Virus record (IMG/VR): IMGVR_UViG_3300045988_173429 | DNA: 57,077 nt | From: a virus | Reading direction: 5' to 3' (one strand) | Shown: one piece after another, positions 2,567-54,194 of the stretch | How positions within the stretch are numbered: the first letter of the stretch is position 1 | Layout: every line of letters starts with the position of its first letter | The notes under the pieces: model-generated | The model's input: only the letters and a program-made list of their open reading frames with translations | Told to the model about the DNA's origin: nothing | Database searches by the model: none | Position numbers and translations under genes: made by a program

Positions 2567-3364
2567 ATGAAAAAGATTTTATTTTTAGGATTGGCCATTT
2601 TGTCAATGGTATATATTTCTTGTTCGGATGATAAAAAAATGGAGGATCATGATGATTTGAAAATACAAGAACTTCCTAAGTTGGATAATGTTAGTTTGGA
2701 TTACCATTCATCAGAACAAATGATAACTTTGGCAAGGGATGTAGAATCCGAAGGTGCAATTGTTTCTTTAAAAGATAATTCTTATTGGATAAGCAAGCTT
2801 AATTTAAGTGGAAGTACGCTATCTTTTAATATTTTGGAAAATACAGAGGTAGAGAGAGGTCATCGTTTTGATACTATTATTATTAGCAATAAAGGAGTAA
2901 AAATAGGTTCGATTTGTGTATCTCAGGCAAGAAAACCTATAAGTACCAAAAGGTTAGTTTGGGCTATATCTTCTGCTATGTATCGAAATGACGCTTTGTG
3001 TAAATCGGATATGTCTGGACAAGAGATAATAAAAGCAATCTATAATCTTTCTAAAACAACAAACGGGAAAGATTCTTATAAGAATTATCCTGCTTTTGCT
3101 TATTGTATAGAAATGAACCATGATCCAGAAAAAAATATGGAATGGCATCTTCCCTCATTGACAGAAATGAGGGGTTACGCCAATGCTCAATCTTATGAAG
3201 GTACACCTATAATACAGCATAATTATTGGTGGACCGCAACAGAGAATAGTTTAAGAGGTGATGCTTTTTCTTTGTATTCAAAAAGTGTTGCTTCAAGAGG
3301 CTCTGTTAGCAAGGGACAGGATTGGTGGATTATGGCTTTTAGAAATGGGGAAATGATAGAATAA
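2567..3364 (+). CDS. lipoprotein with DUF1566-like C-terminal domain (lysogenic-conversion moron)
   Basis: Signal peptide ending YISC (lipobox Cys). WHLPSLTEMRGY and YWWTATE motifs. Sits between the repressor and attP. Confidence 0.6.
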   Translation: MKKILFLGLAILSMVYISCSDDKKMEDHDDLKIQELPKLDNVSLDYHSSEQMITLARDVESEGAIVSLKDNSYWISKLNLSGSTLSFNILENTEVERGHRFDTIIISNKGVKIGSICVSQARKPISTKRLVWAISSAMYRNDALCKSDMSGQEIIKAIYNLSKTTNGKDSYKNYPAFAYCIEMNHDPEKNMEWHLPSLTEMRGYANAQSYEGTPIIQHNYWWTATENSLRGDAFSLYSKSVASRGSVSKGQDWWIMAFRNGEMIE

Positions 3365-5506: not shown

Positions 5507-6259
5507 TTATGCTTTAAATAGTGAATGCAAGAATGCCCTGCCTTGTTCCGTCCATACGGTAAGCATAGCCGTGCTTTGTGAGCCGTCCGAACGGGTGTAG
5601 GTGTGCGTCCTTGTCTTGGTGTATCCTTTGTTCTGATATTTGGACGTCAGAACCCATACTCCGCTTTGCCGGTATTGAATACCTTTTTCTTTCAGTCGCT
5701 TGTTGAGAGTTTCCGCACTCATTCCCATTTCCTTTGCAATCAAGTTTGTGGCATAGGTGTTGACGGACTGTAAGACGGTGTCAACGTACTGGACTTTCGG
5801 GGCGGCTTGGGCAAGCTCTTTCTGTTGGAGTTCGATTGTTTCCTCTTTGGCTGCATTGTCGGCTTCAAGGGCTTTTACTCTCTGTTCTGCTGCTTCTACC
5901 CGTTTCTGTAGGATTTGCTGCGAACGCATGAGGATATAATCATCATCCTTAAGCATCATTTCCCGTTTGTTGAACTCGGAAATGAATTTTTCCTTGAACT
6001 CACCTGCTTTTGCTCCTGTGTAGCCCATGACAAGAAAACTGAAACCGTCTTTGGTCATTTCGTAGTAGTGATAAACTTGACCGTTCTGTGGGTGGGTGTA
6101 GGGGGTATGCGCAAAATTGCGCACCCTGAAATCTTCTGAACATGAGAGCTTCTCAATATCTCTCAATACATCTTTGTGATTCTTACCGAACACCTGTGCA
6201 ACGATTAAAGAAGTGGTAACATCGTTGCCGTTGCTGTTTTGAATTACTAATTCTGCCAT
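5507..6259 (-). CDS. Rha-family regulator / antirepressor with KilAC-like C-terminal domain
   Basis: From MAELVIQNSNGNDVTTSLIVAQVFGKNHKDVLRDIEKL (Rha motif). C-terminus AAPKVQYVDTVL...LIAKEMGMSAETLNKRL is KilAC-like. Confidence 0.8.
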   Translation of the reverse strand: MAELVIQNSNGNDVTTSLIVAQVFGKNHKDVLRDIEKLSCSEDFRVRNFAHTPYTHPQNGQVYHYYEMTKDGFSFLVMGYTGAKAGEFKEKFISEFNKREMMLKDDDYILMRSQQILQKRVEAAEQRVKALEADNAAKEETIELQQKELAQAAPKVQYVDTVLQSVNTYATNLIAKEMGMSAETLNKRLKEKGIQYRQSGVWVLTSKYQNKGYTKTRTHTYTRSDGSQSTAMLTVWTEQGRAFLHSLFKA

Positions 6260-6275
6260 AACTTTCAGCATTAAG

Positions 6276-6590
6276 TTATATAATAGGCAACAAAAAAGCG
6301 GCTGCCATATACGCTGCTGAAAGTTGATGGACTTCACCCCGAAAGGCTAATCTTAACTTACGTATAGGCAACCGCCAATATCTTATATGAACTTTGCTCC
6401 CGACATTTATGTCGCCAGCAAAATTTTGGACATAAAAAATGCCCAACAAACAATTGAGCAAATTAACCGCTTGCCCTGCGAGATGATTAAGCTCATCAAC
6501 TTTCAGCACTGCAAATGTAGGGATAAATTCTATTCCCGCAACTAAATTCACAAAATTTTCTTTTTCAAATAGAACTACTTTTGTTTTCAT
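6276..6590 (-). CDS. hypothetical protein
   Basis: 104-aa ORF, operon context only. Confidence 0.4.
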   Translation of the reverse strand: MKTKVVLFEKENFVNLVAGIEFIPTFAVLKVDELNHLAGQAVNLLNCLLGIFYVQNFAGDINVGSKVHIRYWRLPIRKLRLAFRGEVHQLSAAYMAAAFLLPII

Positions 6591-8414: not shown

Positions 8415-8822
8415 ATGTCAAAAGTAAAAGCAAAATCTATAGAAAATTTTAAGGCTGCTCACCTTTTGTACAATAAAGGAATGCATGCTGCTTCGGTACA
8501 TAATGCTTATTATTCTATACTTCAAATATCAAAACATATATTGCATCATAAATGTTATGTTTCGTATAGTAAGCAAAAGAAAGAAAGTAAAAATGGATAC
8601 GGATCTCATAATTATATAATAGGAGAAATTGAAAACAATTTAACCTCAAGAGGGGAACAAGATCTATTTGATAGTTATGATGATAAAATGTCTGAGATGA
8701 AAAGAATGCGAGTCCTTGCCGATTATGAAGATGCGGAGATCACAAAAGATGAAGCGCAGGCATGTATCGACTATGCTGATGAGTTATTAACTGATTTGAA
8801 AGAGTGCTATAATATATTATGA
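8415..8822 (+). CDS. HEPN-domain protein
   Basis: AAHLLYNKGMHAASVHNAYYSILQISKHIL...GSHNY...RVLADYEDAEITKDEAQACIDYADELL matches the HEPN (PF05168-type) pattern. I did not find a clear Rx4-6H motif. Confidence 0.7.
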   Translation: MSKVKAKSIENFKAAHLLYNKGMHAASVHNAYYSILQISKHILHHKCYVSYSKQKKESKNGYGSHNYIIGEIENNLTSRGEQDLFDSYDDKMSEMKRMRVLADYEDAEITKDEAQACIDYADELLTDLKECYNIL

Positions 8823-9205
8823 ATGAATATGTCGCTAATTTTATAAAGGATATGATGGACACCATTTGTTCAGAATTTAATGGTGTAAGTGTAAGTTATG
8901 CATTTGAAGAACTAACATCTTTTCACATTGTTGAAATAAAAACATCTTTTGAAGGTAACGATGAGTCTGCAACAAAGTTTAAGGATATAATGCATCTTTA
9001 TCGTGTACAAATACGAAACACGTTTCCAAACGAAGATATCATTATTGGATACCCTAAAAAATTTCATGATATGAGTAATACATTGTATAGTAAGGAAAGC
9101 TTTGATATCTTTGGGGGAAAAGAAAAGAGTTATACATTTAATGAATTTCATTCTTCATGGTTAGGAATGGAGACTATAAGTAATGAACAACAGTTAGCAG
9201 CATAA
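8819..9205 (+). CDS. unknown protein, translationally coupled between the HEPN and SecB-like genes
   Basis: ATGA overlap with the HEPN stop. 128 aa. No nucleotidyltransferase (GSxxRG) motif. Aromatic-rich C-terminal tail FNEFHSSWLGMETISNEQQLAA. Confidence 0.6.
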   Translation: MNEYVANFIKDMMDTICSEFNGVSVSYAFEELTSFHIVEIKTSFEGNDESATKFKDIMHLYRVQIRNTFPNEDIIIGYPKKFHDMSNTLYSKESFDIFGGKEKSYTFNEFHSSWLGMETISNEQQLAA

Positions 9206-9209
9206 TATT

Positions 9210-9614
9210 ATGGCGGAAGCAATTGCAAAATTTAGATTTAAAAGGTATAAAATCTTGTCATCTAATATTGAGATAAAAGATGATGACAATCTCGATGGTA
9301 AATTAAATGTTGTGTTTGAACAAACAGGAACAGAGGATGTTGGCATGAATACATATCAACATACTTTGGTTGTTAAGATTTCGAATAAAGATAGATCAAT
9401 TGTCGCAGATGTTAAAATAACAGGATGGTTTGAGTTTGATTCAGAGATAGACGATAAGACAAAATTTATTTTCTTTAATTCAAGTGCTCCTGCTATTTTA
9501 TTCCCATACCTAAGGGCGTACATAACTACTTTAACGGGATTATCAGGAATTAATCCAATAATTCTTCCCACTTTGAATTTATCAAATAGGAATAATGCAG
9601 AAAGGCCGGAATAG
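9210..9614 (+). CDS. SecB-like chaperone
   Basis: FRFKRYKILSSNIEI...GWFEFDSEID...SSAPAILFPYLRAYITTLTGLSGINPIILPTLNL parallels the E. coli SecB stretch [32 protein letters not shown]. Confidence 0.75.
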   Translation: MAEAIAKFRFKRYKILSSNIEIKDDDNLDGKLNVVFEQTGTEDVGMNTYQHTLVVKISNKDRSIVADVKITGWFEFDSEIDDKTKFIFFNSSAPAILFPYLRAYITTLTGLSGINPIILPTLNLSNRNNAERPE

Positions 9615-10918: not shown

Positions 10919-10992
10919 GGTGTTTTTCGGGCAAAGGTAACTACGAAAAGATATTTTATCAACAATGTATTGTTGATATGAGGATTAATTTG

Positions 10993-11000
10993 TAATTTTG
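10993..11000 (+). promoter_or_regulatory. TAATTTTG -7 box upstream of the packaging operon
   Basis: Matches the Bacteroides TAnnTTTG consensus, about 30 nt before the ATG at 11031. Confidence 0.4.
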
Positions 11001-11030: not shown

Positions 11031-11195
11031 ATGTCTTCACAGCAAGGGCCTTTTATACCCCAAAAGAAGCAAGTTGATGTGTTTTGTCCTATTCATGGCA
11101 ACTGGATAGGGCATTATGATTATGGCAGTATTGGATCTTATTACTGCTGGTGCAAAAAGTGTAAAAAAGAAATCAAAATCGTAATGGGAAAATGA
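11031..11195 (+). CDS. small zinc-ribbon-like protein (54 aa)
   Basis: CPIH...CWCKKC. ATGA overlap with the terS start. Below the ORF-track cutoff. Confidence 0.5.
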   Translation: MSSQQGPFIPQKKQVDVFCPIHGNWIGHYDYGSIGSYYCWCKKCKKEIKIVMGK

Positions 11196-11719
11196 AACTT
11201 ACAATCAAACAAGAAAACTTTTGTAATTACTACATAGAATGTGGCAACGCTTCGGAGGCTTATCGGCGGGCTTATTCGTGCGGTAAAATGTCAGATAAAA
11301 CGATATGGGAAGTGTCTTCTAAATTGCTTAAAGACAACAAGGTTGCTACAAGGGTTAAAGAGTTACAAGATGAGCAAAAAGAACAATCTGATCTTACAAA
11401 AGATAGAATATTGGCAGAACTATCAAACATTGCATTTTCCTCTATAGCTCATCTGCATAACACATGGATAGAACGTAAGGACTTTGAGTTACTTACCGAA
11501 AAGCAAAAGTCTTCGATCAAAAGTATATCCACCAAAATATTAAAGAAAAATGTCGGAACTAATGAAGATCCCGAAATTATAGATGTGGAATATGTTAAGG
11601 TCGAATTATATGATAAGATTAAAGCTATAGAGCGTATTTGCAAGATGCTCGGATATGACGAACCAACCGTTTTGGATTTAAGAAATGCCCTTGTCCAGAT
11701 TGATACCGGTATTGATTAA
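11192..11719 (+). CDS. terS: terminase small subunit
   Basis: LTIKQENFCNYYIECGNASEAYRRAYS... is the typical Terminase_2 N-terminus. Confidence 0.85.
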   Translation: MKLTIKQENFCNYYIECGNASEAYRRAYSCGKMSDKTIWEVSSKLLKDNKVATRVKELQDEQKEQSDLTKDRILAELSNIAFSSIAHLHNTWIERKDFELLTEKQKSSIKSISTKILKKNVGTNEDPEIIDVEYVKVELYDKIKAIERICKMLGYDEPTVLDLRNALVQIDTGID

Positions 11720-11805
11720 TGTTCTATTATTTAAGATTTGTATTCGCTTTTTTAGAAAAATATCGGGGTTTATAATTTTATATGTATTCTAAATTTTAGA
11801 TTTTT

Positions 11806-13833
11806 GTGGATAAGAAGGTAATAAGCTATAAGAGGTTCAATCCCAATTTTCATCATTTAAGAGTTGCTCTTAAGAATGATGACAATAGGTTTATCTTCCT
11901 ATACGGTGGATCTTCTTCTGCTAAATCTTTTTCGATTTCGCAAGCTATTGTGTTGGAGTGTATTGAGAATGGATATAACACGATGGTGTTTAGAAAAACT
12001 GGAGCTACTATATCGGATAGTATATATAAGAGTATTCAGGAGGCTATAGGAGGCTTAAAACTTGGCGCATTCTTTAAGCCGGTAGAGGGGCAGATAAGGT
12101 GCTTTAATGGTTCATATATCACTTTCAAAGGCTTGGATGACCCCGAAAAAATAAAAGGCCTTGAAAGTTACCAATATGTATTCTGCGAAGAAATATCCGA
12201 ATTTGATGAAAGTGACTTTAAGCAGATAAGGAAGCGCCTTAGAGGTAGGAAGGGACAAAAGATCATTGCTGCATTTAACCCCATATCCGAAGACCACTGG
12301 ATTAAGAAGAATATATTTGAGCAGGAGAAATTGGTGGAAGTTGACAATCATCTTTACGGGAAATTAAAAGATAATCTAACAGGGAAGATATTAAAAAAAG
12401 AATATTCTGAAATCGCCCAGAAATGGACTAATTCCGCTAAGCTAATATTTAATCCTCGAACAAAAGAATACGATACACATAACCCTGATATAGTGATTAT
12501 GCGGTCTACTTATCTTAATAATTTCTGGGTAGTAGGTTCTCCTGATGGGGGCTATGGTTTTTATGATGCCCAAGTGATAGCCGACTTTGAAAAAGATAAA
12601 GTAAATGATTACGCGTATTATCAAGTATACGCGCTGGGGGAATGGGGGACCGTTAAGACCGGAGGGGAGTTCTTCAGAAACTTCGAGATTGGCAAGCACG
12701 TCGGTCGTTTCGAGTACGATGAACGTTATCCTATCCATATAACTATAGACAACAATGTGCTACCATATATATCAATCGGATTTTGGCAAATTATTACGGG
12801 CGATGTAAATAGCGCAAGACAAGTTCATGAGATACCGGCAGAAGATCCTTTTAATACGGCTTCTAAAGCTTCTGAGGCAGCGGTGGAATACCTCGAGGAT
12901 ATTGGTTATAACGACAAGGTGTATCTATATGGGGATGTGTCGACAAAGAGCGGTAATACAATCGATGATGATAAACTCTCTTTTTTTGACAAATTTAAGG
13001 ATGGTCTGGAAAAATCATTTGTCGTCGAAGAGAGGATGCCCAGAGTAAATCCATCTGTCGCCATGTCGGGGGAATTTATCAATGCCATTTATGCTGGCGC
13101 TATAAAAAGTATAGATATTAGAATAGATGAAAGTTGCAAGGTTTCGATAAATGACTACTCTCGTGTAAAGAAGGATGTGAACGGAGCAATCTTGAAACAG
13201 AGGGTTAAAAATAAAGATACAGGGCAGACATATGAGCAATACGGCCATTTTAGTGATACGAAGCGATATTTTATAACGGAGGCTTTTAATAAAGAGTACA
13301 CGAAGTTTTCTCTTAGAAGAAGTAGAAATAAGATTTCTGATACCTCTATAAAGTATTATGACAAGTCAAAGGTCGACTTGTCTGAAGGATATGGCATGGT
13401 CGAAATCAACCCTTCCATCAATTCGCAATCCGTGTTTGTCAGAGTTATATTTAAAGATAACAAATGCTATGTCACAAGGGCAATGTTATCTGATACCATT
13501 ATAGATGAGCTTGAGGTATCCTCGTTGATTGTTCCAGGTGATAGAGTTCAGGTGGAATGCGATCCTTCACTTGCGGCCTATGTCAAAAATTTAAAGGATC
13601 ATGTCCAAGATGTTAGAGGCAGAAAGCCTTTCCATGATCCTCAAAAAAGGATATCTGCTCATATCGATTATATCCTGAACAACATATTCATCCCAAGTGA
13701 TTATGATACGGATATTCTTTTTGAAGCGTTTATTGAAAACATCCTTGACTACAAGGATAAGAATAACATAGAAGCTATAAATTCATTAGCGGCATTATCA
13801 GAAAGGGTTAAGAGGGGCTTATATGTCGGATAG
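11806..13833 (+). CDS. terL: terminase large subunit (unusually long, 675 aa)
   Basis: GTG start. Walker A FLYGGSSSAKS. PBSX/Terminase_3-like ATPase. C-terminal nuclease-like ...NIEAINSLAALSE. Confidence 0.85.
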   Translation: MDKKVISYKRFNPNFHHLRVALKNDDNRFIFLYGGSSSAKSFSISQAIVLECIENGYNTMVFRKTGATISDSIYKSIQEAIGGLKLGAFFKPVEGQIRCFNGSYITFKGLDDPEKIKGLESYQYVFCEEISEFDESDFKQIRKRLRGRKGQKIIAAFNPISEDHWIKKNIFEQEKLVEVDNHLYGKLKDNLTGKILKKEYSEIAQKWTNSAKLIFNPRTKEYDTHNPDIVIMRSTYLNNFWVVGSPDGGYGFYDAQVIADFEKDKVNDYAYYQVYALGEWGTVKTGGEFFRNFEIGKHVGRFEYDERYPIHITIDNNVLPYISIGFWQIITGDVNSARQVHEIPAEDPFNTASKASEAAVEYLEDIGYNDKVYLYGDVSTKSGNTIDDDKLSFFDKFKDGLEKSFVVEERMPRVNPSVAMSGEFINAIYAGAIKSIDIRIDESCKVSINDYSRVKKDVNGAILKQRVKNKDTGQTYEQYGHFSDTKRYFITEAFNKEYTKFSLRRSRNKISDTSIKYYDKSKVDLSEGYGMVEINPSINSQSVFVRVIFKDNKCYVTRAMLSDTIIDELEVSSLIVPGDRVQVECDPSLAAYVKNLKDHVQDVRGRKPFHDPQKRISAHIDYILNNIFIPSDYDTDILFEAFIENILDYKDKNNIEAINSLAALSERVKRGLYVG

Positions 13834-13872
13834 ATTTTATTCTTAATTGTTTGTTCATCTGAAAATAAGCAC

Positions 13873-13953
13873 TATATTTGTAGCGTATAAAAGAAAATAA
13901 AGAGCCTAAGAGCCATTCTCAGTAGAAATACTGGGGATGGCTCTTTTTGTTTG
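13873..13953 (+). promoter_or_regulatory. late cassette copy 1: TATATTTG, AGAGCCTAAGAGCC, 16-bp hairpin (GAAA loop), TTTTTGTTTG
   Basis: Box at 13873..13880, 14-mer at 13901..13914, hairpin at 13909..13944, U-tract to 13953. Confidence 0.7.
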
Positions 13954-13960
13954 TACAAAA

Positions 13961-15358
13961 ATGAAATATCCTTTATTACAAAAACTTGCTTTTTGGAAAT
14001 CTAACTGGAATAGCAGTTCGAAATCTTTTTCTATGGTAGGTAATGTGAATGCCGTAGAAAAAGATCAAGCAGGGAACATTTGGTATATAAATGCATTATC
14101 AAAAGGACTACAACAAATTATTGGTGGCAAATCTGACGTTTTTGATATGCTTAACCTTGCTGACAAAAGAAAGGCCTTAATAGCCTGCACTCCTTTTGCA
14201 ACTGTTGTTGAGAGATGCGGTTCTATGTTTTCTAACGGGCGATTTTATGTGACGGATAAAGAGGATAATGAGCATTTGGATGGAGATAATAAATACAATA
14301 AGATAAGGACCTTGCTTAAACAGCCTAACCAAATTCAAAGTGGAAAGCAATTTAATAAGCAGGTTGAAATCACCCTCAAAACTTTTGGCTTTTGCCCTAT
14401 TTATACATTTAGAGCTTTGAGATCTGAAATACCGGTTTCGATGTGGATTATTCCCCCTGAACTTTTCCACGCTGAAGTAGATGCTAACATATGGAAAAAA
14501 TCAAGATTAGAGGAAGTTATAAAAAAGGCATGGATTGAATGGGGGAGTGAGAATATCTATATAGAGAGTGATGAATATTTTGTTGTATCTGATGCGAGTG
14601 CTAATATTAATGTAACTGAAAAAGAGTTGTCTTATATCCATATAACAGACTCTCTTACTAGGCCGGTTAACAATTGGATTGCTCAAATGATTGCAAGAGG
14701 CACATTGATCGTTGATGGTGGTCCAAAAGGCGTATTGTGTAACGATGCCAATGGTGATATATATGGGGATAATTCTCTTACCCCAGGAGAGATTGAAAAA
14801 CTAAACGAAAGTTTTAAACGTAAATATGGTGTTGTAGGTAAACTTTTTTCAGTCCTTGTTACTACCGCAAATGTAAAATGGGTTCCAATTACGGGCAATT
14901 CGGAAGATTTAAAATTATATCAAGAAGATAAAGAGTGTCGCAATACCATCTGCAATTCATTAGGGATAAATCCTAATGTTTTGATATCAGATAGCACATA
15001 CGACAATCAGAACGGGGCAAAACGAGATGCCTATCAAGACTTGATCATACCTGATTCTGAGAATTATTGCGAAGCCCTAACAAAGGCTATAGTAGGGGAT
15101 GATGAGATAATTATAAGATTGGATTATTCTCATATATCCGTGCTCCAGGAAGATAAGAAAAGTGCTGCAAGTGCTTTATCTCTTGCTTCTAATGCGGTTC
15201 GTAATTTATACAATGATGGTATCATAACATTGTCCGAATCCAGGAAAGAAGTAGCTAATTATATAGATATAGATCCGGACAATCCTGAAGGTGACTTTAA
15301 ACAAGAATCTCAATCAATAGAAAATAATATACATAATGGCACACAAATTGAAAACTAA
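13961..15358 (+). CDS. portal protein
   Basis: Size and position directly after terL. Start moved to MKYPLLQK because the track start 13937 lies inside the hairpin. Confidence 0.7.
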   Translation: MKYPLLQKLAFWKSNWNSSSKSFSMVGNVNAVEKDQAGNIWYINALSKGLQQIIGGKSDVFDMLNLADKRKALIACTPFATVVERCGSMFSNGRFYVTDKEDNEHLDGDNKYNKIRTLLKQPNQIQSGKQFNKQVEITLKTFGFCPIYTFRALRSEIPVSMWIIPPELFHAEVDANIWKKSRLEEVIKKAWIEWGSENIYIESDEYFVVSDASANINVTEKELSYIHITDSLTRPVNNWIAQMIARGTLIVDGGPKGVLCNDANGDIYGDNSLTPGEIEKLNESFKRKYGVVGKLFSVLVTTANVKWVPITGNSEDLKLYQEDKECRNTICNSLGINPNVLISDSTYDNQNGAKRDAYQDLIIPDSENYCEALTKAIVGDDEIIIRLDYSHISVLQEDKKSAASALSLASNAVRNLYNDGIITLSESRKEVANYIDIDPDNPEGDFKQESQSIENNIHNGTQIEN

Positions 15359-20706: not shown

Positions 20707-20979
20707 ATGGAACTTAATGATTTAACTTTTTCACTTCAGAATGGGGTTTATAAAACTTCTTTTCAGCCAACAGGTGATTTTAGAATACATATTAAACGAC
20801 AAGCGTCTGGTCGGTTGTCGTTCTTTGAAACAATAACAGGATCAGATCCTGTTGCTTTTGGAGTTATAAATTGGACTCTTCCTAACTTTGAGGCAAAAGT
20901 ACCCGATGTGACTCCGGGGATGACCATTGTTATTGAAAGCGAGACTCCTGTTACAAAATGCCAATACACTTATGAATGA
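20707..20979 (+). CDS. hypothetical protein
   Basis: 90-aa ORF. Confidence 0.5.
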   Translation: MELNDLTFSLQNGVYKTSFQPTGDFRIHIKRQASGRLSFFETITGSDPVAFGVINWTLPNFEAKVPDVTPGMTIVIESETPVTKCQYTYE

Positions 20980-23035
20980 TCTTGCGTTGAAAACATTAGA
21001 GCCAAGAGAACTGAGGCTAAATACAATTAGTCTTCGGGGGTTCTATGGTAAAAAGCTACGGAAGGGTTCCGGTGGCGGTTCCGGCGACGGTTTCCCGCAA
21101 CTTCCGGGCGATGTTACGCGTTGGCATTTCGGCGGCCTGACGAACGAGATGATGGCGGCTATGGACGATCCTCGGATTGAGGATGCGGATGGCAAAGGTA
21201 GGTTCCTATCCTTCAAGAATTTCGCTTGGAAGGGGATGTCCGGGGTTGGCGGATATACCGAGAACTATGATAGCAATAAATGGTATAAGGTAGCATCAAG
21301 AATTGATACTACTTGGACTTATAAGTCTTTTAATGTAAAATCAATAAAGGACAACAATGCAGCTCAATTATTTTATCAATCATTATCAAGTGATACTGGA
21401 TTTAGGGTTTTATCATGTACTATCAAAGTTTCTGGTTTAACAGACGGACAAGGAATTGAATATGTTTCGAATGAGGCACAACCAACTGTTATAATGAGAA
21501 TTGAAAATGATGGTATATATCATCTACCAAGTTTTGATTTTGGAGCTAAAAATGCTTATTACGGATTCAAGTTCTCAAAGTTACAAGAATCATGCGACAT
21601 CACCATCGAGCAACTTCCCCTCTACCCCGGCGCACTTGTCTTTGACGGAGTAGACGATTGGGCGGGATGTGACAACTTGCCATTATTGCCTAAAGAAAAA
21701 GGATATAGTATTATTGCATTGAGGAATTGGATAACACGATATGATGCAACTCAATATAAAAGACCTTTAATATCAAATCTTGACACAAATGATGAAGGCG
21801 CTTTTTTAATTGAATATAGAAAGGATGAAAATGTAAATGACGTTACGGGATCTTATAATAGTTTTACAGATGTATATATTGATGATAATAACCCTATTAC
21901 ATGGCAAACATCAAGTAGTTACAATGGTCAAATAATAAAAAAAGGAACATCTAAATCTACTAATAAGCTGTGTATTTGTAAAACTTATTTTGGCCAATTA
22001 AGTAATTATGCCAATGCTGCCATTTGGGAAATAGTCATTCTCGATCATGATGCCACCGAAGAAGAACTGACCAAGATCAAAGACTACTTCGTTAAAACCT
22101 ATCCCTGGCTCTTCCCCGACCAGGCATGGACTGTCACCGGCAAAACCAACGAGGACGAAGATCGTGCTACTATTGCCAACATTACGGGCAATGGTAATGA
22201 TCTTGTACTGTTGAATTTTGGGTTTGCAGAAGGGAGTGGGTATGGGTTGTATGCATATAATTTCAACTTGTTTAGTCTTAGAGATGCTACAGTTAAGCCC
22301 ACAGATGTAAAAAAAGATTCGTTTAGAATAATCGGAACTGGAGACAGGGGTAATGTTTTAGTTTTATCAAATGTATCTAATTCTACTGATTGGAAAATAC
22401 GTATTACCGGTATGAAAGATGGTGATCATCTTTTAGCTGGAAACGCAAATAAAAGTGGCGATTATGTTAAAATAACTAAGGATGGTGTATATACTTTCCA
22501 AAAACAATATGCAGCAAATGCTGCGAATGGTATATGGTATAATTCTTCACAAGAAGTAGATGTTTTAGTTGAACAAATCCCCGAATACGAAGGATACCTC
22601 ATTACTGATGGGGTGGATGATAAGATAACTTCGTCTACATTTGAAATGGGTAATGATTGGACTGTAATAGGAGATTGGGAGCTTATAAATACAGGGAAAA
22701 ATGCCAATGCTGGTATTGTAAAATTTAATAGTATAGTCATTTATAATTATAATCCAATACTTATTAACATAAAAAATGGTAGAAATAATTTGATTCCCGA
22801 TCAAAATACCGTTAATGCAATTTGTTCTGATGGCAGGATTTATTCAAAAGACTGGAAAGAATCTATTTATAATGAAGAAACGGAATCTACCAGTAAAAAT
22901 CTCTTAACTATAGGATATTCAGGTAACAGTTATACTAAAATTGCTTTCAAAAACTTAGCGATTTATCCTACAGTCCTTTCCAAGGAAGATTGTATAAAAG
23001 CATATAATTATTTACAAACATTAAAAGCAAAATGA
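20972..23035 (+). CDS. protein with two LamG/concanavalin-like domains
   Basis: Start MNDLALK (ATGAATGA overlap). Motifs LVFDGVDDWAGC and LITDGVDDKITS are typical of Laminin_G_3 domains. Confidence 0.6.
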   Translation: MNDLALKTLEPRELRLNTISLRGFYGKKLRKGSGGGSGDGFPQLPGDVTRWHFGGLTNEMMAAMDDPRIEDADGKGRFLSFKNFAWKGMSGVGGYTENYDSNKWYKVASRIDTTWTYKSFNVKSIKDNNAAQLFYQSLSSDTGFRVLSCTIKVSGLTDGQGIEYVSNEAQPTVIMRIENDGIYHLPSFDFGAKNAYYGFKFSKLQESCDITIEQLPLYPGALVFDGVDDWAGCDNLPLLPKEKGYSIIALRNWITRYDATQYKRPLISNLDTNDEGAFLIEYRKDENVNDVTGSYNSFTDVYIDDNNPITWQTSSSYNGQIIKKGTSKSTNKLCICKTYFGQLSNYANAAIWEIVILDHDATEEELTKIKDYFVKTYPWLFPDQAWTVTGKTNEDEDRATIANITGNGNDLVLLNFGFAEGSGYGLYAYNFNLFSLRDATVKPTDVKKDSFRIIGTGDRGNVLVLSNVSNSTDWKIRITGMKDGDHLLAGNANKSGDYVKITKDGVYTFQKQYAANAANGIWYNSSQEVDVLVEQIPEYEGYLITDGVDDKITSSTFEMGNDWTVIGDWELINTGKNANAGIVKFNSIVIYNYNPILINIKNGRNNLIPDQNTVNAICSDGRIYSKDWKESIYNEETESTSKNLLTIGYSGNSYTKIAFKNLAIYPTVLSKEDCIKAYNYLQTLKAK

Positions 23036-23696: not shown

Positions 23697-23746
23697 TGGG
23701 GTTTAAATAACTCATAGATTGATTTGGCTATTCCGTGCAATTTGGC

Positions 23747-23835
23747 TATGTTTGTAACAGCATAACAAAAGATTTAGAGCCTAAGAGCCATACCCGGTAA
23801 GAGTCATATCCTGCGGGGTATGGCTCTTTTTGTTT
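23747..23835 (+). promoter_or_regulatory. late cassette copy 2
   Basis: TATGTTTG at 23747. AGAGCCTAAGAGCC at 23776..23789. Stem AGAGCCATACCC/GGGTATGGCTCT. TTTTTGTTT to 23835. Confidence 0.7.
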
Positions 23836-23854: not shown

Positions 23855-24553
23855 ATGAAGACAAATCAGATTATGACTCGCACAATGGGTGATTTCAAAG
23901 TTATCCAAAGAACCTGTGATGGAAAATTCGACTGCACAAGTTTATTATCTCAGTGGAATAGTTCAAATAGAAACAACACTAAAAAGATAAGTGATTATCT
24001 TAGATTAAAAGAAACAAAAGACTTTGTCAAAGCCCTTATGGAAGAGCCTGAATTTAAAGACGGGAATTCCCACCTTTTAGAAAGCACTGATTATAAAGAT
24101 TTTCCCAAATCCATCGTTGCCGTAACAAGGGGTAAAAATGGAGGGACATATATGACACCTCTTATGTTTTTAGATTTTGCAATGTGGCTAAATCCCGCAT
24201 TCAAGGTCAAAGTACTAAAATTCGTTCAAGACGAAATGATCCGATACCGTAATGACGCAGGAGATGCCTATAAAGAGCTTTCATCCGCAGTTATGAAAAT
24301 CGTTCCGAGTCACTTCATGCCTAAAGCGATGCAAAAAATTGGCGAGGCATTGAACTGGATCATTTTTAACTCCCACGAAAAGATGTTACGGAATAAGCAT
24401 GGAGATGAAGCAAGGTTGCGTGAGTTATGGCAATTAGAAAAGAAAATTGCTGGCTTGATAGAAGAAGGATTTATATCAACCTATGAACAGTTGATATCAT
24501 ATCTAAGAAAGCTGTATCGTAAAAACTGGGAGCCAAAAGTACTAACGGTATAA
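23855..24553 (+). CDS. KilA-N domain protein
   Basis: GKNGGTYMTPLMFLDFAMWLNPAFKVKVLKFV. Confidence 0.75.
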   Translation: MKTNQIMTRTMGDFKVIQRTCDGKFDCTSLLSQWNSSNRNNTKKISDYLRLKETKDFVKALMEEPEFKDGNSHLLESTDYKDFPKSIVAVTRGKNGGTYMTPLMFLDFAMWLNPAFKVKVLKFVQDEMIRYRNDAGDAYKELSSAVMKIVPSHFMPKAMQKIGEALNWIIFNSHEKMLRNKHGDEARLRELWQLEKKIAGLIEEGFISTYEQLISYLRKLYRKNWEPKVLTV

Positions 24554-30522: not shown

Positions 30523-30592
30523 TACATTTGCAAGCATAGAGCCTAAGAGCCGTATACGTAGTTAACGCTGCGTATACGGCTCTTTTTGTTTG
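30523..30592 (+). promoter_or_regulatory. late cassette copy 3
   Basis: TACATTTG at 30523. AGAGCCTAAGAGCC at 30538..30551. Perfect 13-bp stem AGAGCCGTATACG/CGTATACGGCTCT. TTTTTGTTTG. Confidence 0.7.
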
Positions 30593-30601
30593 TATAAGCG
30601 T

Positions 30602-31501
30602 ATGATAAAAATAAGCAGTGTATCTCCTTTGATATTTGACGTTGAAAGTACAGGCTTTGAACATTCGATCGATTATGTTCAGAAGTTTGAAAGGGAAGAT
30701 ATACCTATCCTTATACAGATCGTAGATGTTCCAAACAAGACATTTACCATGTTACTTGTTGATTTATATAATGGGACTTCATATCAAATATCTCCACAAA
30801 AATACGAGATTAACGATTACAACACGTTGTACGAATTTACGATAAGTCCTTCAAATGATGGAACCTATCAAGTTCGAATAACAAATGAGGCTGAAGAGGC
30901 ATCAGTTAGTTTGCCCTTCTGTGTACATAGTTCATCGTATACTCCATTTACAATGCAAATAGAATATACAAATGCAAATAATCAACAAGCATTTGGGGCT
31001 GTATTTGATGTATCAGGGAATAAACGTGTATTTAAAACACGTGTAGAAGGAGGGTTTAAATCTGATAGCCGGCAATTAGCTGTTGAAAGCGAACAATTCA
31101 GAACTCAAAAGCAAGAACCTATTAATCTATATTCTGTCCCTTATGAAAAAAGGACACTTACGATTGGTGATAATGAAGGTGTCCCTTTTGAAATGGCCCG
31201 GCTTTTAAACAATATCTTCTGCTTGTCTTCTGTGAAAATTGATGGAGTGTCTTATGCCAGAAGTGAATCAAGCGTACCGGAACAACAGGTTATTGCCGAG
31301 AGATATCCACAGTTCAATTATACTTTAACGGTGGAATGCTCCGAAAATGTTTCTTACAATGGTTTTACCGAATATCCAGATGGATCTGGTATTGTTGGAG
31401 AAGTCAGTTTAAACGTTTCTAATGCTAAAGACGGTCAAGTTTTAGTCTTTGACGGAAACGAAGGAAGTTTTGTTAACCAATCACATCTTGATTCGCTATG
31501 A
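30602..31501 (+). CDS. tail/baseplate-associated hypothetical protein
   Basis: Start MIKISSV after the hairpin. 4-nt overlap with the next gene. Confidence 0.5.
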   Translation: MIKISSVSPLIFDVESTGFEHSIDYVQKFEREDIPILIQIVDVPNKTFTMLLVDLYNGTSYQISPQKYEINDYNTLYEFTISPSNDGTYQVRITNEAEEASVSLPFCVHSSSYTPFTMQIEYTNANNQQAFGAVFDVSGNKRVFKTRVEGGFKSDSRQLAVESEQFRTQKQEPINLYSVPYEKRTLTIGDNEGVPFEMARLLNNIFCLSSVKIDGVSYARSESSVPEQQVIAERYPQFNYTLTVECSENVSYNGFTEYPDGSGIVGEVSLNVSNAKDGQVLVFDGNEGSFVNQSHLDSL

Positions 31502-52882: not shown

Positions 52883-53356
52883 TTATTTGAATTTAATTGT
52901 GTAACTTTGTTTTGCCATTTTAACCGCAGGGTGCAGTGTTATGATCTCCCCAGTGTTATCGTCTACAATAGTTGTATTATCGTGAACGGATTTCAAGAAT
53001 CCTTCTCGCTCTTTCATCTTTGCTTGTAGTTCTTTCAAACTTGCCAAATATGCGTTGTATACAGGATCATTGCAAACGCTGTAATCATATGAAACTCCCA
53101 TCTCTTTTAATGTTATCTCGCATCCGTTCCATGAAGTAGACTTGCCGTATTTCTCTGTCTCAGTAATAACAGAATCTTTTATTCTATCGTCATCCAATAC
53201 TTTCTTCAATGTGTCATATAACCCTCTTATCTTAGCCACATGTTCTATCGGGTTTACATCGCCATCAAGAACAGGTATGATGATCGAGTTTGCAAGTTCT
53301 TGTTGACTTTGCTTGGTGACAGGGAATATCCCTATCTTCTTAATACTATTCTCCAT
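52883..53356 (-). CDS. hypothetical protein
   Basis: 157-aa ORF between erf and ssb. Confidence 0.55.
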   Translation of the reverse strand: MENSIKKIGIFPVTKQSQQELANSIIIPVLDGDVNPIEHVAKIRGLYDTLKKVLDDDRIKDSVITETEKYGKSTSWNGCEITLKEMGVSYDYSVCNDPVYNAYLASLKELQAKMKEREGFLKSVHDNTTIVDDNTGEIITLHPAVKMAKQSYTIKFK

Positions 53357-53984
53357 ATTTCGATTTTTTATATTGTAGATACATATCTATTACTGTTTGT
53401 AATTCAACTGACCCTATCTTGTAAAGGCTTTCCATTAACCGAGATACGGAGAAGTTTTGCTTTTTCTGTTTTGCATCCTTCTCCTTTTCTTCTATAAAAG
53501 CATACAATTTGTTCATGGACTCATCATTGTTCAGAAAGTCCGGTCGAAAAATCTTACGTGCGTCCAGATTAGTCTTTGGCGCATCTGCTGTATTTACTTG
53601 CAAGTTGGATGCTTTGTTTGCATCATCATCATCGTCTATATTTAGGTTCAAGATAGAGCCGATAGCATATCTACGCTGGTAAGTAATACAAGACCCTATG
53701 CTTTGAGGATCATTCTTTACAGGACGCATAGCGTATGACGATAAAATCCATTCACCGGAGTTGTGCATAAGTATTGTTTCTAACTCATTCTCTCCTTTAG
53801 GCATCTGCATAATAGAAAGCCCGCATTCTGACAATGGTTTTTGTATCACATCCAGTATGTCTGCCAGTGAGGCATATTTACTTTTAAAGTAGGGATTTTT
53901 GCTGTCTTTTTTCACCTTTCCAACCTCTTGCTGGAATTTACAGAGAGCATTGGCAATCTCTTTTATCGATTCTGATCTTTCCAT
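53346..53984 (-). CDS. erf: ERF-family single-strand annealing recombinase
   Basis: From MERSESIKEIANAL. NPYFKSKYASLADILDVIQKPLSECGL...ITYQRRYAIGSILNLNIDDDDD. Confidence 0.8.
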   Translation of the reverse strand: MERSESIKEIANALCKFQQEVGKVKKDSKNPYFKSKYASLADILDVIQKPLSECGLSIMQMPKGENELETILMHNSGEWILSSYAMRPVKNDPQSIGSCITYQRRYAIGSILNLNIDDDDDANKASNLQVNTADAPKTNLDARKIFRPDFLNNDESMNKLYAFIEEKEKDAKQKKQNFSVSRLMESLYKIGSVELQTVIDMYLQYKKSKYGE

Positions 53985-54001
53985 ATTATAAATGTTTAAT
54001 G

Positions 54002-54070
54002 TGTGGATGCTAGGGAATCGAACCCCTTTCTTCCCCGGTAGGGGACGCTTTACCATTAAGCTATGCGCCC
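54002..54070 (-). ncRNA. tRNA-like element 2: D-arm and T-arm present, tetraloop 'anticodon' hairpin, unpaired acceptor
   Basis: Minus-strand sequence: GGGCGCA-TA-GCTT-AATGGTA-AAGC-G-TCCCC-TACC-GGGGA-AGAA-AGGGG-TTCGATT-CCCTA-GCATCCA. Ends 17 nt before the erf ATG. Confidence 0.45.
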
Positions 54071-54147
54071 TGTTGCCTGCCTCCTGGCGGTAATTGTTCC
54101 CGGATAACCTATCAAAGTACACCGGGATGTTGTTTGAAATAATAAAT

Positions 54148-54194
54148 GGAAACAAAATAACCGGTCTCTCACCGGACGCTGTCCTTTAACAGCG
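54148..54194 (-). terminator. two adjacent hairpins followed by a U-tract (weak terminator) in the erf leader
   Basis: Minus-strand sequence: CGCTGT-N6-ACAGCG, then CCGGT-GAGAG-ACCGG, then TTATTTTGTTT. Confidence 0.4.

What the first reader, a model, noticed from the sequence alone, without database searches (positions are those of the whole stretch)
13873..13953. Conserved promoter-like box + AGAGCCTAAGAGCC + covarying terminator hairpin, copy 1 of 3 (before the portal/head genes)
Seen: three intergenic elements (13873..13953, 23747..23835, 30523..30592) share the same architecture.
- A TAnnTTTG box.
- The exact 14-mer AGAGCCTAAGAGCC, 7-21 nt downstream of the box.
- A hairpin whose base is AGAGCC(A/G)T...A(T/C)GGCTCT.
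- A TTTTTGTTT tract.

The inner stems have unrelated sequences but stay paired. This copy has 16 bp with a GAAA loop; copy 2 has 12 bp; copy 3 has 13 perfect bp. Copy 3 carries a compensatory A:T to G:C change at stem position 7. Each element ends 8-25 nt before the first ATG of a plus-strand late gene block. The track start 13937 lies inside this hairpin, so the portal more likely starts at 13961.

Established: TAnnTTTG is the Bacteroides primary-sigma -7 element. A stem followed by a U-tract is an intrinsic terminator. Promoter-proximal terminators are how lambdoid Q proteins and HK022 put RNAs gate late transcription.

Inference: late genes may be controlled by processive antitermination, or the elements may each release an RNA of roughly 55-80 nt. 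The duplicated AGAGCC half-site could be a protein- or RNA-recognition box. I cannot tell whether this element family has already been described.
Basis: partly seen in the sequence, partly recalled or inferred. Interest (0 to 1): 0.8.

Follow-up and report, generated by a model that had tools for sequence, protein, structure and literature searches.

The report
Com-like protein switch at phage terminators
Three promoter-plus-terminator cassettes in this Parabacteroides-type prophage each carry a tandem GAGCC repeat that matches the RNA site of phage Mu's zinc-finger protein Com, and the phage encodes a small Com-like protein, so they probably form a protein-controlled terminator switch for the late genes that also occurs in gut phages of at least three bacterial phyla.

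Summary
Three exact copies of AGAGCCTAAGAGCC lie on the + strand. Each follows a Bacteroides-type TAnnTTTG box. In each, the second AGAGCC is the 5' base of a strong hairpin ending GGCTCT-TTTTTGTTT.

The element is not private to this phage. (A/U)GAGCC repeated 2-4 times (spacers 0-2 nt), then a terminator, occurs in phages and prophages of Bacteroidota, Bacillota and Gastranaerophilales. Hairpin interiors are unrelated but covary.

In many Bacillota phages the repeats form the 3' end of a ~50-aa zinc-ribbon ORF (Pfam Cys_rich_KTR, function unknown). The constraint there is on nucleotides, not amino acids. The window encodes such a protein at 11031-11195, the first gene of the terS-terL operon.

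KTR proteins are distant homologues of phage Mu Com. Com's published RNA motif, CC(N)2-3GAG, is what the repeat junction provides (CC-UAA-GAG).

Best explanation: KTR binds the repeats in nascent RNA and blocks the terminator stem base, allowing read-through into late genes. This step is inferred, not shown.

I rate it a new variant of a known kind and found no prior description.

The parts
10958..10977 (.). Perfect palindrome ATCAACAATgtATTGTTGAT, a candidate operator upstream of the promoter of the KTR-terS-terL operon
   Evidence: Read directly from the sequence. Its function is inferred.
10993..11000 (+). TAATTTTG, a Bacteroides-type -7 box 30 nt upstream of the KTR start codon. No GAGCC element follows it.
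11031..11195 (+). 54-aa Com-like / Cys_rich_KTR-like zinc-ribbon ORF (..VFCPIHGNWIGHYDYGSIGSYYCWCKKCKKEIKIVMGK). It is the proposed trans-acting RNA binder. Its stop codon overlaps the terS start (ATGA).
   Evidence: Local KTR HMM built without this sequence: E 7e-5. Broader HMM: E 8e-13. Recovered as P0104 by the profile search, E 2e-10, seen on 710 contigs. Profile-profile comparison (hhalign) of Mu Com against alignment A3, whose first sequence is this protein: probability 88%, E 3e-6. Pfam itself gives no hit.
11192..13833 (+). terS (11192-11719) and terL (11806-13833), transcribed together with KTR and lying upstream of element 1
   Evidence: Pfam Terminase_2 and Terminase_3
13850..13880 (+). 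Element 1 promoter-like part: TTTG (13850-13853), 19 nt, TATATTTG (13873-13880)
   Evidence: The consensus is recalled from the literature.
13901..13914 (+). Element 1 tandem repeat AGAGCC-TA-AGAGCC. It contains CC-UAA-GAG, which fits the Com-type site CC(N)2-3GAG.
   Evidence: PMC6483171
13909..13952 (+). Element 1 intrinsic terminator: 16-17 bp hairpin (2 G-U pairs, GAAA loop) at 13909-13944, then TTTTTGTTT
13961..15358 (+). Portal gene, the first gene gated by element 1. Its start is revised from 13937 to 13961.
   Evidence: Pfam Phage_portal; orthologue check of the start codon
23723..23754 (+). Element 2 promoter-like part: TTTG (23723-23726), 20 nt, TATGTTTG (23747-23754)
23776..23789 (+). 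Element 2 tandem repeat AGAGCC-TA-AGAGCC
23784..23835 (+). Element 2 terminator: 12 bp outer stem plus an inner extension. An internal third copy, AAGAGUCAUAUCC, can pair with the same 3' arm instead. TTTTTGTTT follows. The element precedes the KilA-N gene (23855-24553).
30523..30530 (+). Element 3 -7 box TACATTTG, 7 nt before the repeats, so the transcript would start at or next to the first repeat
30538..30551 (+). Element 3 tandem repeat AGAGCC-TA-AGAGCC
30546..30591 (+). Element 3 terminator: 17-18 bp hairpin at 30546-30583, then TTTTTGTTT. It precedes the tail-region ORF whose first ATG is at 30603 and which ends at 31501 (ORF listing: 30590..31501, TTG start).

Best explanation
Each element is a conditional intrinsic terminator controlled by a small phage-encoded RNA-binding protein.

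**Proposed sequence of events**
1. A Bacteroides-type promoter starts transcription at, or a few nucleotides before, two tandem (A/U)GAGCC hexamers.
2. The second hexamer is also the bottom 5' strand of a long hairpin that runs straight into a U tract. Without a factor, RNA polymerase therefore stops after about 50-75 nt, depending on the copy, and polymerases arriving from upstream genes stop there too.
3. The 54-aa Com-like zinc-ribbon protein (KTR, 11031-11195) is made from the terminator-free KTR-terS-terL transcript.
4. KTR binds the CC-N(1-3)-GAG junction of the repeats in the nascent RNA before the 3' arm has been transcribed.
5. With the lowest six base pairs of the stem occupied, the remaining hairpin ends too far from the U tract to terminate. 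Polymerase then reads through into portal/head genes (element 1), the KilA-N/tail genes (element 2) and the distal tail genes (element 3).

Every terminator has its own site, so control is local, as with HutP or LicT, rather than processive.

**Shown here**
- The anatomy of the elements.
- Hairpin covariation and the U tract.
- Conservation of the repeat at nucleotide level.
- Its association with KTR genes.
- KTR-Com homology.
- The match to Com's published RNA motif.

**Inferred**
- That KTR binds these repeats.
- That binding prevents termination.
- That the boxes are active promoters.
For: **1. A terminator on the + strand RNA.**
- Fold energies are -28 to -31 kcal/mol with z-scores of -6 to -8, and the minus strand folds more weakly.
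- 67 of 86 distinct elements have at least 6 T in the 8 nt after the stem, against 1.6% of random 8-mers.

**2. Hairpin covariation.** I built 50 distinct constructs anchored at the stem base.
- 89.5% of cells pair, against 72% in shuffles (0 of 500 reach the observed value) and 29-51% when the partners are slid.
- All 7 variable pairs show changes on both sides.

**3. The repeat is tied to the terminator.**
- 95 of 126 exact 14-mer hits in IMG/VR have GGCTCT within 70 nt downstream.
- Generic AGAGCC..GGCTCTTT terminators almost never carry the upstream repeat: 4 of 138 matches, from 2 loci.

**4. Cross-phylum spread.** The strict pattern has 26 places in GTDB genomes. They are in Lachnospiraceae/Roseburia/Dorea, Erysipelotrichaceae, Oscillospiraceae, Syntrophomonadaceae, Gastranaerophilales, Muribaculaceae, Paludibacteraceae and Parabacteroides. 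I counted 78 distinct elements with unrelated hairpin interiors and spacers TA, TT, TG, AA, A, T, C, AC or none.

**5. The constraint is on nucleotides, not amino acids.**
- Where the repeats lie in the KTR ORF, the tail reads EPxS. The residue x is only K, E, Q, L, M or V (52 of 52), which are exactly the N[A/T]G codons.
- With a 1-nt spacer the tail reads EPRA.
- The DNA sequences predicted from these tails were confirmed in L265, L273, L277, L278 and L279. One of them has a compensatory UGAGCC..GGCUCA change.

**6. Association with KTR.**
- A Cys_rich_KTR ORF (Pfam E 1e-11 to 1e-4) lies on the same strand, overlapping the element or at most 400 nt upstream, in many independent lineages. This holds for 13 of the 26 GTDB places.
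- In all 8 Bacteroidota sources (the window and seven loci) that reach far enough upstream, KTR sits just before terS.

**7. KTR is Com-like.**
- PHROG 'translational regulator' E 2.7e-6 and 'gpCom' E 5.7e-4.
- Profile-profile comparison (hhalign): probability 88%, E 3e-6.
- BLASTP: 36% identity over 36 aa.

**8. Motif match.** SELEX for Com gave GAG(N)2CC and the bipartite motif NGAGNNCC(N)2-3GAGNNCCNN. Com recognises CC(N)2-3GAG, and the GA dinucleotide is crucial (PMC6483171). The window repeats read GAGCC-UAA-GAGCC.

**9. Positional homology.** In Mu, the Com site begins at the codon right after the zinc-finger domain of com and abuts the regulated hairpin. The KTR repeats begin at the same point of the KTR ORF.

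**10. No other strong terminators.** The three elements are the only strong terminators in the ~33-kb late region.
Against: - No experiment was done. Binding, and the direction of its effect, are inferred.
- Mu Com acts on translation, not termination.
- The published Com core has two nucleotides between GAG and CC. Here there are none.
- Roseburia phage Jekyll carries one perfect element but no KTR-like ORF.
- Some KTR genes (P0013/L276 and the P0105 subfamily/L271) have no adjacent element.
- In the window, KTR lies 2.7-19 kb from its proposed targets.
- The window protein falls below Pfam's threshold, and its first zinc knuckle is C-x2-H.
- The AlphaFold model is of only moderate confidence (pLDDT 73), and Foldseek found nothing significant.
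- The loci were seeded with the 14-mer, so the census is biased towards this exact variant.
Confidence: 0.55

Rival explanations
1. KTR binds the repeats as Com does, but the output is post-transcriptional. Opening or remodelling the hairpin would activate translation of the gene just downstream, as in the Mu com-mom logic, or would change mRNA stability or processing. Termination would not be the controlled step.
For: - KTR is homologous to a translational activator.
- In the window the hairpins end only about 16-27 nt before the start codons.
- Bacteroidota lack Shine-Dalgarno-led initiation and are sensitive to 5' structure (from general knowledge).
Against: - The hairpins never include the start codon or ribosome-binding site.
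- In Bacillota phages the gap to the next gene reaches 70-130 nt.
- A U tract follows the stem in about 80% of distinct elements, which translation control would not require.
Confidence: 0.15
2. Processive antitermination of the lambda Q or N kind. The repeats would be a loading site (DNA or RNA) next to the promoter. From there KTR or another factor would join RNA polymerase and make it resistant to this and later terminators.
For: - The order promoter - site - terminator resembles pR'-qut-tR'.
- In Bacteroidota-type and some Bacillota-type elements the repeats start at about +1 to +20.
Against: - No Q-like, N-like or NusG-like family was found in the window ORFs scanned.
- Every terminator has its own site, which processive modification would not need.
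- Many elements sit inside the KTR ORF with no promoter in front.
- No other strong terminators in the late region would call for processivity.
- KTR is about 50 aa and is related to an RNA-binding protein.
Confidence: 0.1
3. There is no trans-acting factor. The cassettes would be constitutive partial terminators combined with promoters that insulate and re-set transcription between late gene modules. The GAGCC repeats would be a relic of KTR 3' ends spread by recombination at module boundaries.
For: - The elements sit at module boundaries: terL|portal, tape measure region|KilA-N, tail|tail, tail fibre|holin.
- Jekyll has an element without KTR.
- L218 holds a decayed KTR tail with intact outer repeats.
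Against: - The hexamers are conserved exactly in non-coding copies across phyla while hairpin interiors diverge completely.
- The codon constraint inside ORFs points to selection on the RNA/DNA sequence.
- The match to the Com motif would have to be coincidence.
Confidence: 0.1
4. The main product is the short terminated RNA itself, a 5'-AGAGCCUAAGAGCC-hairpin-U tail of roughly 50-75 nt depending on the copy. It would act as a small RNA or as a decoy that titrates KTR or a host factor.
For: - Promoters are placed so that the transcript begins at the repeats.
- There is a precedent: a regulatory sRNA is released from the terminated pR' transcript of Stx phages (PMC7547250; I saw only the abstract).
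Against: - Many elements have no promoter of their own and lie inside an ORF.
- No conserved single-stranded seed exists beyond the protein-type motif.
- The hairpin interiors are unrelated.
Confidence: 0.05

Closest known systems
Phage Mu com-mom module (Com zinc-finger translational activator and its mRNA site)
   Same: - A small (about 50-60 aa) zinc-finger protein with detectable homology to KTR.
- An RNA site built from GAG and CC elements, CC(N)2-3GAG, often bipartite (PMC6483171).
- The site begins right after the zinc-finger-coding part of the protein's own ORF.
- The site abuts the hairpin that is regulated.
   Different: - In Mu the hairpin sequesters the mom start codon, so control is translational, and there is a single site. 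Here the hairpin is followed by a U tract and lies upstream of the start codon, which suggests transcription termination.
- The sites are multiplied, with 3 in this phage, and in Bacteroidota each is fused to its own promoter.
- The genes controlled are structural/late genes, not a DNA-modification gene.
- The hosts are Bacteroidota, Bacillota and Gastranaerophilales, not Proteobacteria.
RNA-binding, non-processive antiterminators (B. subtilis HutP; BglG/LicT-RAT)
   Same: - A regulator gene lies upstream of a terminator, and the target genes lie downstream (the hutP arrangement).
- Short repeated RNA motifs overlap the 5' side of the terminator, so binding prevents hairpin formation.
- There is one site per terminator.
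   Different: - There is no sequence relationship. KTR is a zinc ribbon, not a HutP or CAT/PRD fold.
- No ligand or phosphorylation input is evident.
- These comparisons rest on textbook knowledge and were not tested here.
Lambdoid Q / pR'-tR' late-gene antitermination
   Same: - A promoter-proximal terminator silences the late genes until a phage protein appears.
- A short terminated RNA is a by-product.
   Different: - Q binds DNA in the promoter, loads at a sigma-dependent pause and acts processively.
- None of these features is seen here, and no Q family protein was found.
PeSL promoter/stem-loop cassettes of T4-type phages (recalled from memory)
   Same: Repeated intergenic cassettes of promoter plus stem-loop at module boundaries.
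   Different: - PeSLs have no conserved protein-type RNA motif and no partner protein.
- They are discussed as recombination substrates.

Membership tests
Intrinsic (Rho-independent) terminator | Stable G+C-containing hairpin immediately followed by a U tract on the transcribed strand | tested here: met
   - Fold energies -28.5, -31.3 and -31.1 kcal/mol, z-scores -6.2 to -8.2.
- Top three terminator-like sites of the late region.
- 67 of 86 distinct family members have at least 6 T in the next 8 nt.
Bacteroides primary-sigma promoter | TAnnTTTG at about -7, with TTTG at about -33 | tested here: met
   - The -7 box is present at all three elements.
- TTTG lies 19-20 nt upstream at elements 1 and 2. 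Element 3 has TTTA-like sequence only.
- All 41 Bacteroidota-type contexts have the box 3-25 nt upstream of the repeats, but those contexts were defined by the presence of the box.
- Promoter activity cannot be tested with these tools.
Mu Com / mom regulatory module | Small zinc-finger protein homologous to Com | tested here: met
   - PHROG gpCom E 5.7e-4 and 'translational regulator' E 2.7e-6 for KTR P0007.
- Profile-profile comparison (hhalign): probability 88%, E 3e-6.
- BLASTP: 36% identity over 36 aa.
- This is distant homology, not membership of the same Pfam family.
Mu Com / mom regulatory module | RNA target with CC(N)2-3GAG, or the bipartite GAG(N)2CC motif | tested here: inconclusive
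   - The repeats give CC-UAA-GAG, which is CC(N)3GAG.
- Variants with shorter spacers give N1-2.
- Within each unit GAG is followed directly by CC, not by N2-CC (PMC6483171).
- Binding was not measured.
Mu Com / mom regulatory module | Regulated hairpin sequesters the start codon or SD of the downstream gene (translation inhibition structure) | tested here: not met
   Start codons lie 16-27 nt (window) to more than 70 nt (Bacillota loci) beyond the hairpin, and a U tract follows the stem.
Pfam PF14205 Cys_rich_KTR | Score above Pfam's gathering threshold | tested here: not met
   - The window protein has no Pfam hit.
- It is linked through a local HMM (E 7e-5 and 8e-13) and through the profile search (P0104, E 2e-10).
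- Bacillota partners of the element do pass: 37.5, 44.8 and 26.4 bits against a cut-off of 25.5.
Lambdoid Q antitermination | Q-family protein, a DNA Q-binding element in the promoter with a sigma-dependent pause, and processive action from one loading site | tested here: not met
   - No Q, N or NusG family among 50 window ORFs scanned with Pfam.
- One site per terminator.
- Sites also occur inside ORFs without promoters.
- Pausing and processivity cannot be tested here.
HK022 put or other described cis-acting RNA (Rfam) | Match to a curated covariance model | tested here: not met
   - At the gathering threshold the whole window gives only a tRNA-like hit.
- Permissive scans of element 1 and of L139 give only chance-level hits.

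The most novel reading that the evidence does not exclude
Cys_rich_KTR proteins are currently a Pfam family with no assigned function. About 1,900 clusters at 50% identity match the profile. In this reading they are a Com-related class of RNA-binding antiterminators.

Together with (A/U)GAGCC-repeat terminators, they would form a portable 'regulator plus conditional terminator' switch. The switch would time late gene expression in temperate phages of several gut phyla.

It may also gate read-through downstream of tet genes in elements such as phi-m46.1, and possibly in Tn916-family elements.
Probability: 0.4. Interest if true: 0.8.

Novelty: new variant of a known kind. Interest (0 to 1): 0.72.

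Why it matters
- **Late-gene control.** How temperate phages of Bacteroidota and gut Bacillota control their late genes is essentially unknown. This gives a concrete, testable cis/trans pair: a 54-aa protein and a 14-nt RNA site on three terminators.
- **Protein function.** It assigns a probable function to an uncharacterised protein family.
- **Com paradigm.** It extends the Mu Com mechanism from one translational curiosity to a widespread transcriptional switch.
- **Evolution.** It shows an RNA signal preserved inside a coding tail across reading frames.
- **Synthetic biology.** The parts are small and modular, which suits regulated terminators in Bacteroides.
- **Annotation.** Start codons such as the portal's, and small ORFs of this kind, are easily mis-called.

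Tried and rejected
- **Rfam.** Gathering and permissive thresholds gave no family.
- **Literature.** Searches for the 14-mer, 'AGAGCC' with terminator/phage, Cys_rich_KTR/PF14205, and zinc-ribbon antitermination found no description.
- **Shared-protein search.** I compared the window with complete Roseburia phage Jekyll, which has one element. Only YopX is shared and there is no KTR. This first suggested a host factor. I considered boxA/NusB-S10, sigma-dependent pausing, pairing with rRNA, RNase III sites, attC-like recombination sites and REP/MITE-like mobility. I dropped these because nothing tested here supported any of them, and because the KTR link then emerged.
- **Rha/ANT antirepressors.** They recur within a few kb of the element. 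I judged these common accessory genes rather than partners.
- **Type C zinc protein.** An 82-aa CxxC..CxxC protein lies upstream of 'type C' elements. It is not KTR.
- **Structure.** The model had pLDDT 73 and Foldseek against the PDB found nothing significant.
- **Phage collection (INPHARED).**
  - DNA searches with the window gave only unannotated fecal contigs, and the 'type C' locus L047 gave no match.
  - A tblastn search with the window KTR also gave no match.
- **Tn916 orf6.** I could not confirm that it is a KTR from the paper read.
Full report
**1.

The 14-mer AGAGCCTAAGAGCC occurs exactly three times in the 57-kb window (13901, 23776, 30538), all on the + strand. No further match appears even with two mismatches. 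None of 100 shuffles gives three. GAGCC-N1-3-GAGCC finds the same three sites only.

Each copy has the same layout:
- a TAnnTTTG box 20, 21 or 7 nt upstream;
- a second AGAGCC that is the 5' base of a hairpin closed by GGCTCT;
- a following TTTTTGTTT tract.

TAnnTTTG is not enriched in the window as a whole: 70 matches on both strands against 63 expected. Its presence just upstream of all three copies is therefore a specific association, with a chance probability of roughly 5e-6 by my arithmetic.

The RNAs fold at -28.5, -31.3 and -31.1 kcal/mol (z = -6.5, -6.2, -8.2). The opposite strand folds 5-10 kcal/mol worse because of G-U pairs. The three sites are the strongest terminator-like signals in the whole late region.

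**2. Gene context**

Pfam scans give the following layout on the + strand:
- terS (11192-11719) and terL (11806-13833);
- element 1;
- portal, prohead protease, major capsid protein and a long ORF (20927-23035) that I take, from its size and position, to be the tape measure;
- a 219-aa ORF;
- element 2;
- a KilA-N gene and large tail ORFs;
- element 3;
- further tail ORFs.

An integrase lies near the start of the window. Early and replication genes lie on the minus strand near its end. So the elements sit inside a co-directional block of about 33 kb of late genes, at module boundaries.

The portal start at 13937 lies inside the hairpin. In the orthologues L260 and L120, a stop codon separates that ATG from the downstream one, so 13961 is the likely start.

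**3. The element is a widespread family**

Of 126 hits, 95 have GGCTCT within 70 nt downstream, followed by T's.

The reverse does not hold. Generic terminators of the form AGAGCC..GGCTCTTT are common, but almost none has the upstream repeat: 4 of 138 matches, from two loci. The duplication is therefore a specific feature.

The strict pattern 14-mer + N10-40 + GGCTCTTT occurs at 26 places in GTDB species genomes. The hosts are:
- Lachnospiraceae (Roseburia, Dorea), Erysipelotrichaceae, Oscillospiraceae and Syntrophomonadaceae;
- a Gastranaerophilales MAG;
- Muribaculaceae and Paludibacteraceae;
- Parabacteroides hominis (three copies, orthologous to the window) and P. distasonis.

Across all loci I counted 78 distinct elements. 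The spacers are TA, TT, TG, AA, A, T, C, AC or none, there are 2-4 hexamers, and the hairpin interiors are completely unrelated. All fold with the last hexamer at the stem base.

To test covariation I built 50 distinct constructs anchored at the stem base (hexamer + 7 nt | linker | 7 nt + GGCTCT). The results were:
- 89.5% of cells pair, against 72% after shuffling (0 of 500 reach the observed value) and 29-51% when partners are slid;
- all seven variable pairs show double changes.

The pairing of the inner stem was not part of the selection of these sequences.

A U-rich tail (at least 6 T in 8 nt) follows 67 of 86 distinct elements, against 1.6% of random 8-mers.

Rfam has no family for the element. 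The searchable literature does not mention it.

**4. Promoters**

In every Bacteroidota-type context the repeats are preceded by TAnnTTTG at 3-25 nt. At the shortest distances the transcript must start at the first hexamer. Non-coding Bacillota versions have TATAAT 7-10 nt upstream. Many other elements have no promoter at all because they lie inside an ORF (see section 5).

So the constant part is repeat + hairpin + U tract. The promoter is an add-on.

**5. The partner gene**

In many Bacillota loci the 14-mer is the 3' end of a 48-60-aa ORF of the form CPxCG..(N)FPxYCKKCKxE..I(T)IEPKS... This is Pfam PF14205 Cys_rich_KTR (E 1e-11 to 1e-4), a family for which I found no functional literature.

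A local HMM finds such ORFs in these positions:
- on the same strand, overlapping the element or at most 400 nt upstream, in many independent lineages, including 13 of the 26 GTDB places and a Muribaculaceae genome;
- just upstream of terS in the window and in all seven other Bacteroidota loci that extend far enough upstream.

In the window this ORF is 11031-11195. Its stop codon overlaps the terS start. It has its own TAATTTTG box and a perfect palindrome upstream. The profile search recovers the window protein as P0104 (E 2e-10; seen on 710 contigs). About 1,870 clusters at 50% identity match the family profile.

KTR genes sit in phage structural modules, for example terS-terL-portal-minor capsid-KTR-[element]-scaffold-major capsid.

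**6. The repeat is conserved as nucleic acid, not as protein**

Where the repeats are translated, the tail reads E-P-x-S. The residue x is only K, E, Q, L, M or V (52 of 52), which is exactly the set encoded by N[A/T]G. The constraint is therefore (A/U)GAGCC.

With a 1-nt spacer the second hexamer shifts frame and the tail reads EPRA (20 clusters). With four hexamers it reads EPEPKSQSR.

I predicted the DNA from these tails and then checked it:

| Locus | Sequence found |
|---|---|
| L265 | AGAGCC-T-AGAGCC |
| L277 | AGAGCC-TT-TGAGCC |
| L278 | TGAGCC-TG-TGAGCC |
| L279 | AGAGCC-TG-AGAGCC |
| L273 | AGAGCC-AT-TGAGCC, with a compensating GGCTCA in the 3' arm |

In the window, and in 'type C' phages, the same hexamers are non-coding.

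**7. What KTR is**

PHROGs links KTR to 'translational regulator' (E 2.7e-6) and to 'gpCom' (E 5.7e-4). Flavonifractor phage Cormatin annotates its KTR in the same way.

I took Mu Com from the Mu genome record. It aligns to the KTR profile with 88% probability (E 3e-6) and to P0007 at 36% identity over the 36-aa zinc-finger region.

Com is an RNA-binding zinc finger. SELEX gave GAG(N)2CC and a bipartite motif, NGAGNNCC(N)2-3GAGNNCCNN. Com recognises CC(N)2-3GAG, with the GA dinucleotide essential. The native site, GAAUGCCUGCGAGCAUCCCACGGAG, abuts the hairpin that blocks mom translation (PMC6483171).

The window repeats read GAGCC-UAA-GAGCC, which is CC(N)3GAG flanked by GAG and CC.

In Mu the site starts at the codon immediately after the zinc-finger domain of com. 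KTR repeats start at the equivalent point of the KTR ORF. The two modules therefore look like evolutionary relatives: a zinc-finger ORF, an RNA site embedded in its 3' part, and a regulated hairpin.

**8. Mechanism proposed**

Unlike the Mu hairpin, these hairpins do not cover a start codon, and they run into a U tract. The structure that a bound protein would disturb is therefore a terminator.

KTR bound to the hexamers would hold the bottom six pairs open. The remaining stem would then end too far from the U tract to terminate. Read-through would follow.

Each terminator has its own site, and there are no other strong terminators in the late block. That argues for local rather than processive control. 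HutP is the closest functional analogue, and this comparison rests on textbook knowledge.

In the window, KTR is the first gene of the terminator-free KTR-terS-terL transcript. Its accumulation would then open elements 1, 2 and 3.

All of this step is inference. I put it at 0.55.

**9. What does not fit**

- Roseburia phage Jekyll has one perfect element between tail fibre and holin but no KTR-like ORF. It shares only YopX with the window.
- Two KTR subtypes lack an adjacent element.
- The Com core has a 2-nt gap between GAG and CC that is absent here.
- The window protein is below Pfam's cut-off.
- The structure model is modest (pLDDT 73) and the fold search is uninformative.
- My sample was seeded with one exact variant of the motif.

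**10. Verdict**

It points towards a Com-like RNA-binding protein encoded at 11031-11195.

Relative to what is known, this is a new variant of a known kind. Com-type RNA recognition is known, and terminator control by RNA-binding proteins is known. What is new is that the two are combined, multiplied within a genome, fused to promoters, and spread across phyla.

It has not been described in Rfam or in the literature I could search.

Noticed in passing
window 54003-54071 (-): A tRNA-like sequence (Rfam tRNA 36.4 bits; ARAGORN 'tRNA-???' with an undetermined anticodon) lies inside the ERF-family recombinase ORF 53346-54155.
   Followed up: no
window 10958-11000: A perfect 9+2+9 palindrome, ATCAACAATgtATTGTTGAT, lies just upstream of the TAATTTTG box that precedes the KTR-terS-terL operon. 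It is a candidate operator for whatever switches the late cascade on.
   Followed up: no
window 23799-23828: Element 2 contains a third, internal copy, AAGAGUCAUAUCC, of the 5' arm. It can pair with the same 3' arm through G-U pairs, giving an alternative 13-bp terminator hairpin. Relatives keep this copy with wobble-compatible changes.
   Followed up: partly
window, whole: The pentamer GAGCC is rarer than expected: 44 matches against 58.8 +/- 7.5 expected, and 9 of the 44 lie in the three elements. This may reflect avoidance of stray binding sites.
   Followed up: no
L281 (Streptococcus phage phi-m46.1, FM864213.1) 2498-2740: A canonical KTR (ORF60) lies directly downstream of tet(O). It is followed by AGAGCC-AGACGC-T-TAAGACGC-AGAGCC, a hairpin and TTTTTGTTT. 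From memory, Tn916 orf6 occupies the same place after tet(M), but I could not verify this.
   Followed up: partly
L282 (Flavonifractor phage Cormatin, ON453905.1) 3058-3230: The KTR homologue is annotated 'translational regulator'. Two direct repeats of AGCGCCUGAGCCA are present: the first lies within its coding 3' end and the second spans its stop codon, forming the 5' arm of a terminator. The whole lies upstream of HNH-terS-terL.
   Followed up: partly
L121 (Roseburia phage Jekyll, LR596902.1) 3050-3107 (-): One perfect element lies between the tail fibre gene (whose stop codon is the TAA inside the 14-mer) and the holin. The genome has no KTR-like ORF. Related contigs have TATAAT 7 nt upstream of the repeats.
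   Followed up: partly
window 8415-9614 and 5507-6337 (-): The accessory region holds a HEPN-domain ORF, a SecB-like ORF and a Rha/ANT antirepressor. Rha/ANT homologues recur within a few kb of the element in about 20 loci of both phyla. I judged this coincidental.
   Followed up: partly
L218 (IMG/VR contig), minus strand, about 12388 from the minus-strand start: A decayed KTR tail (..ITIIKEPDAKTQSR, preceded by stop codons) keeps the outer AGAGCC hexamers and the terminator. This shows that elements can outlive the adjacent KTR gene.
   Followed up: no
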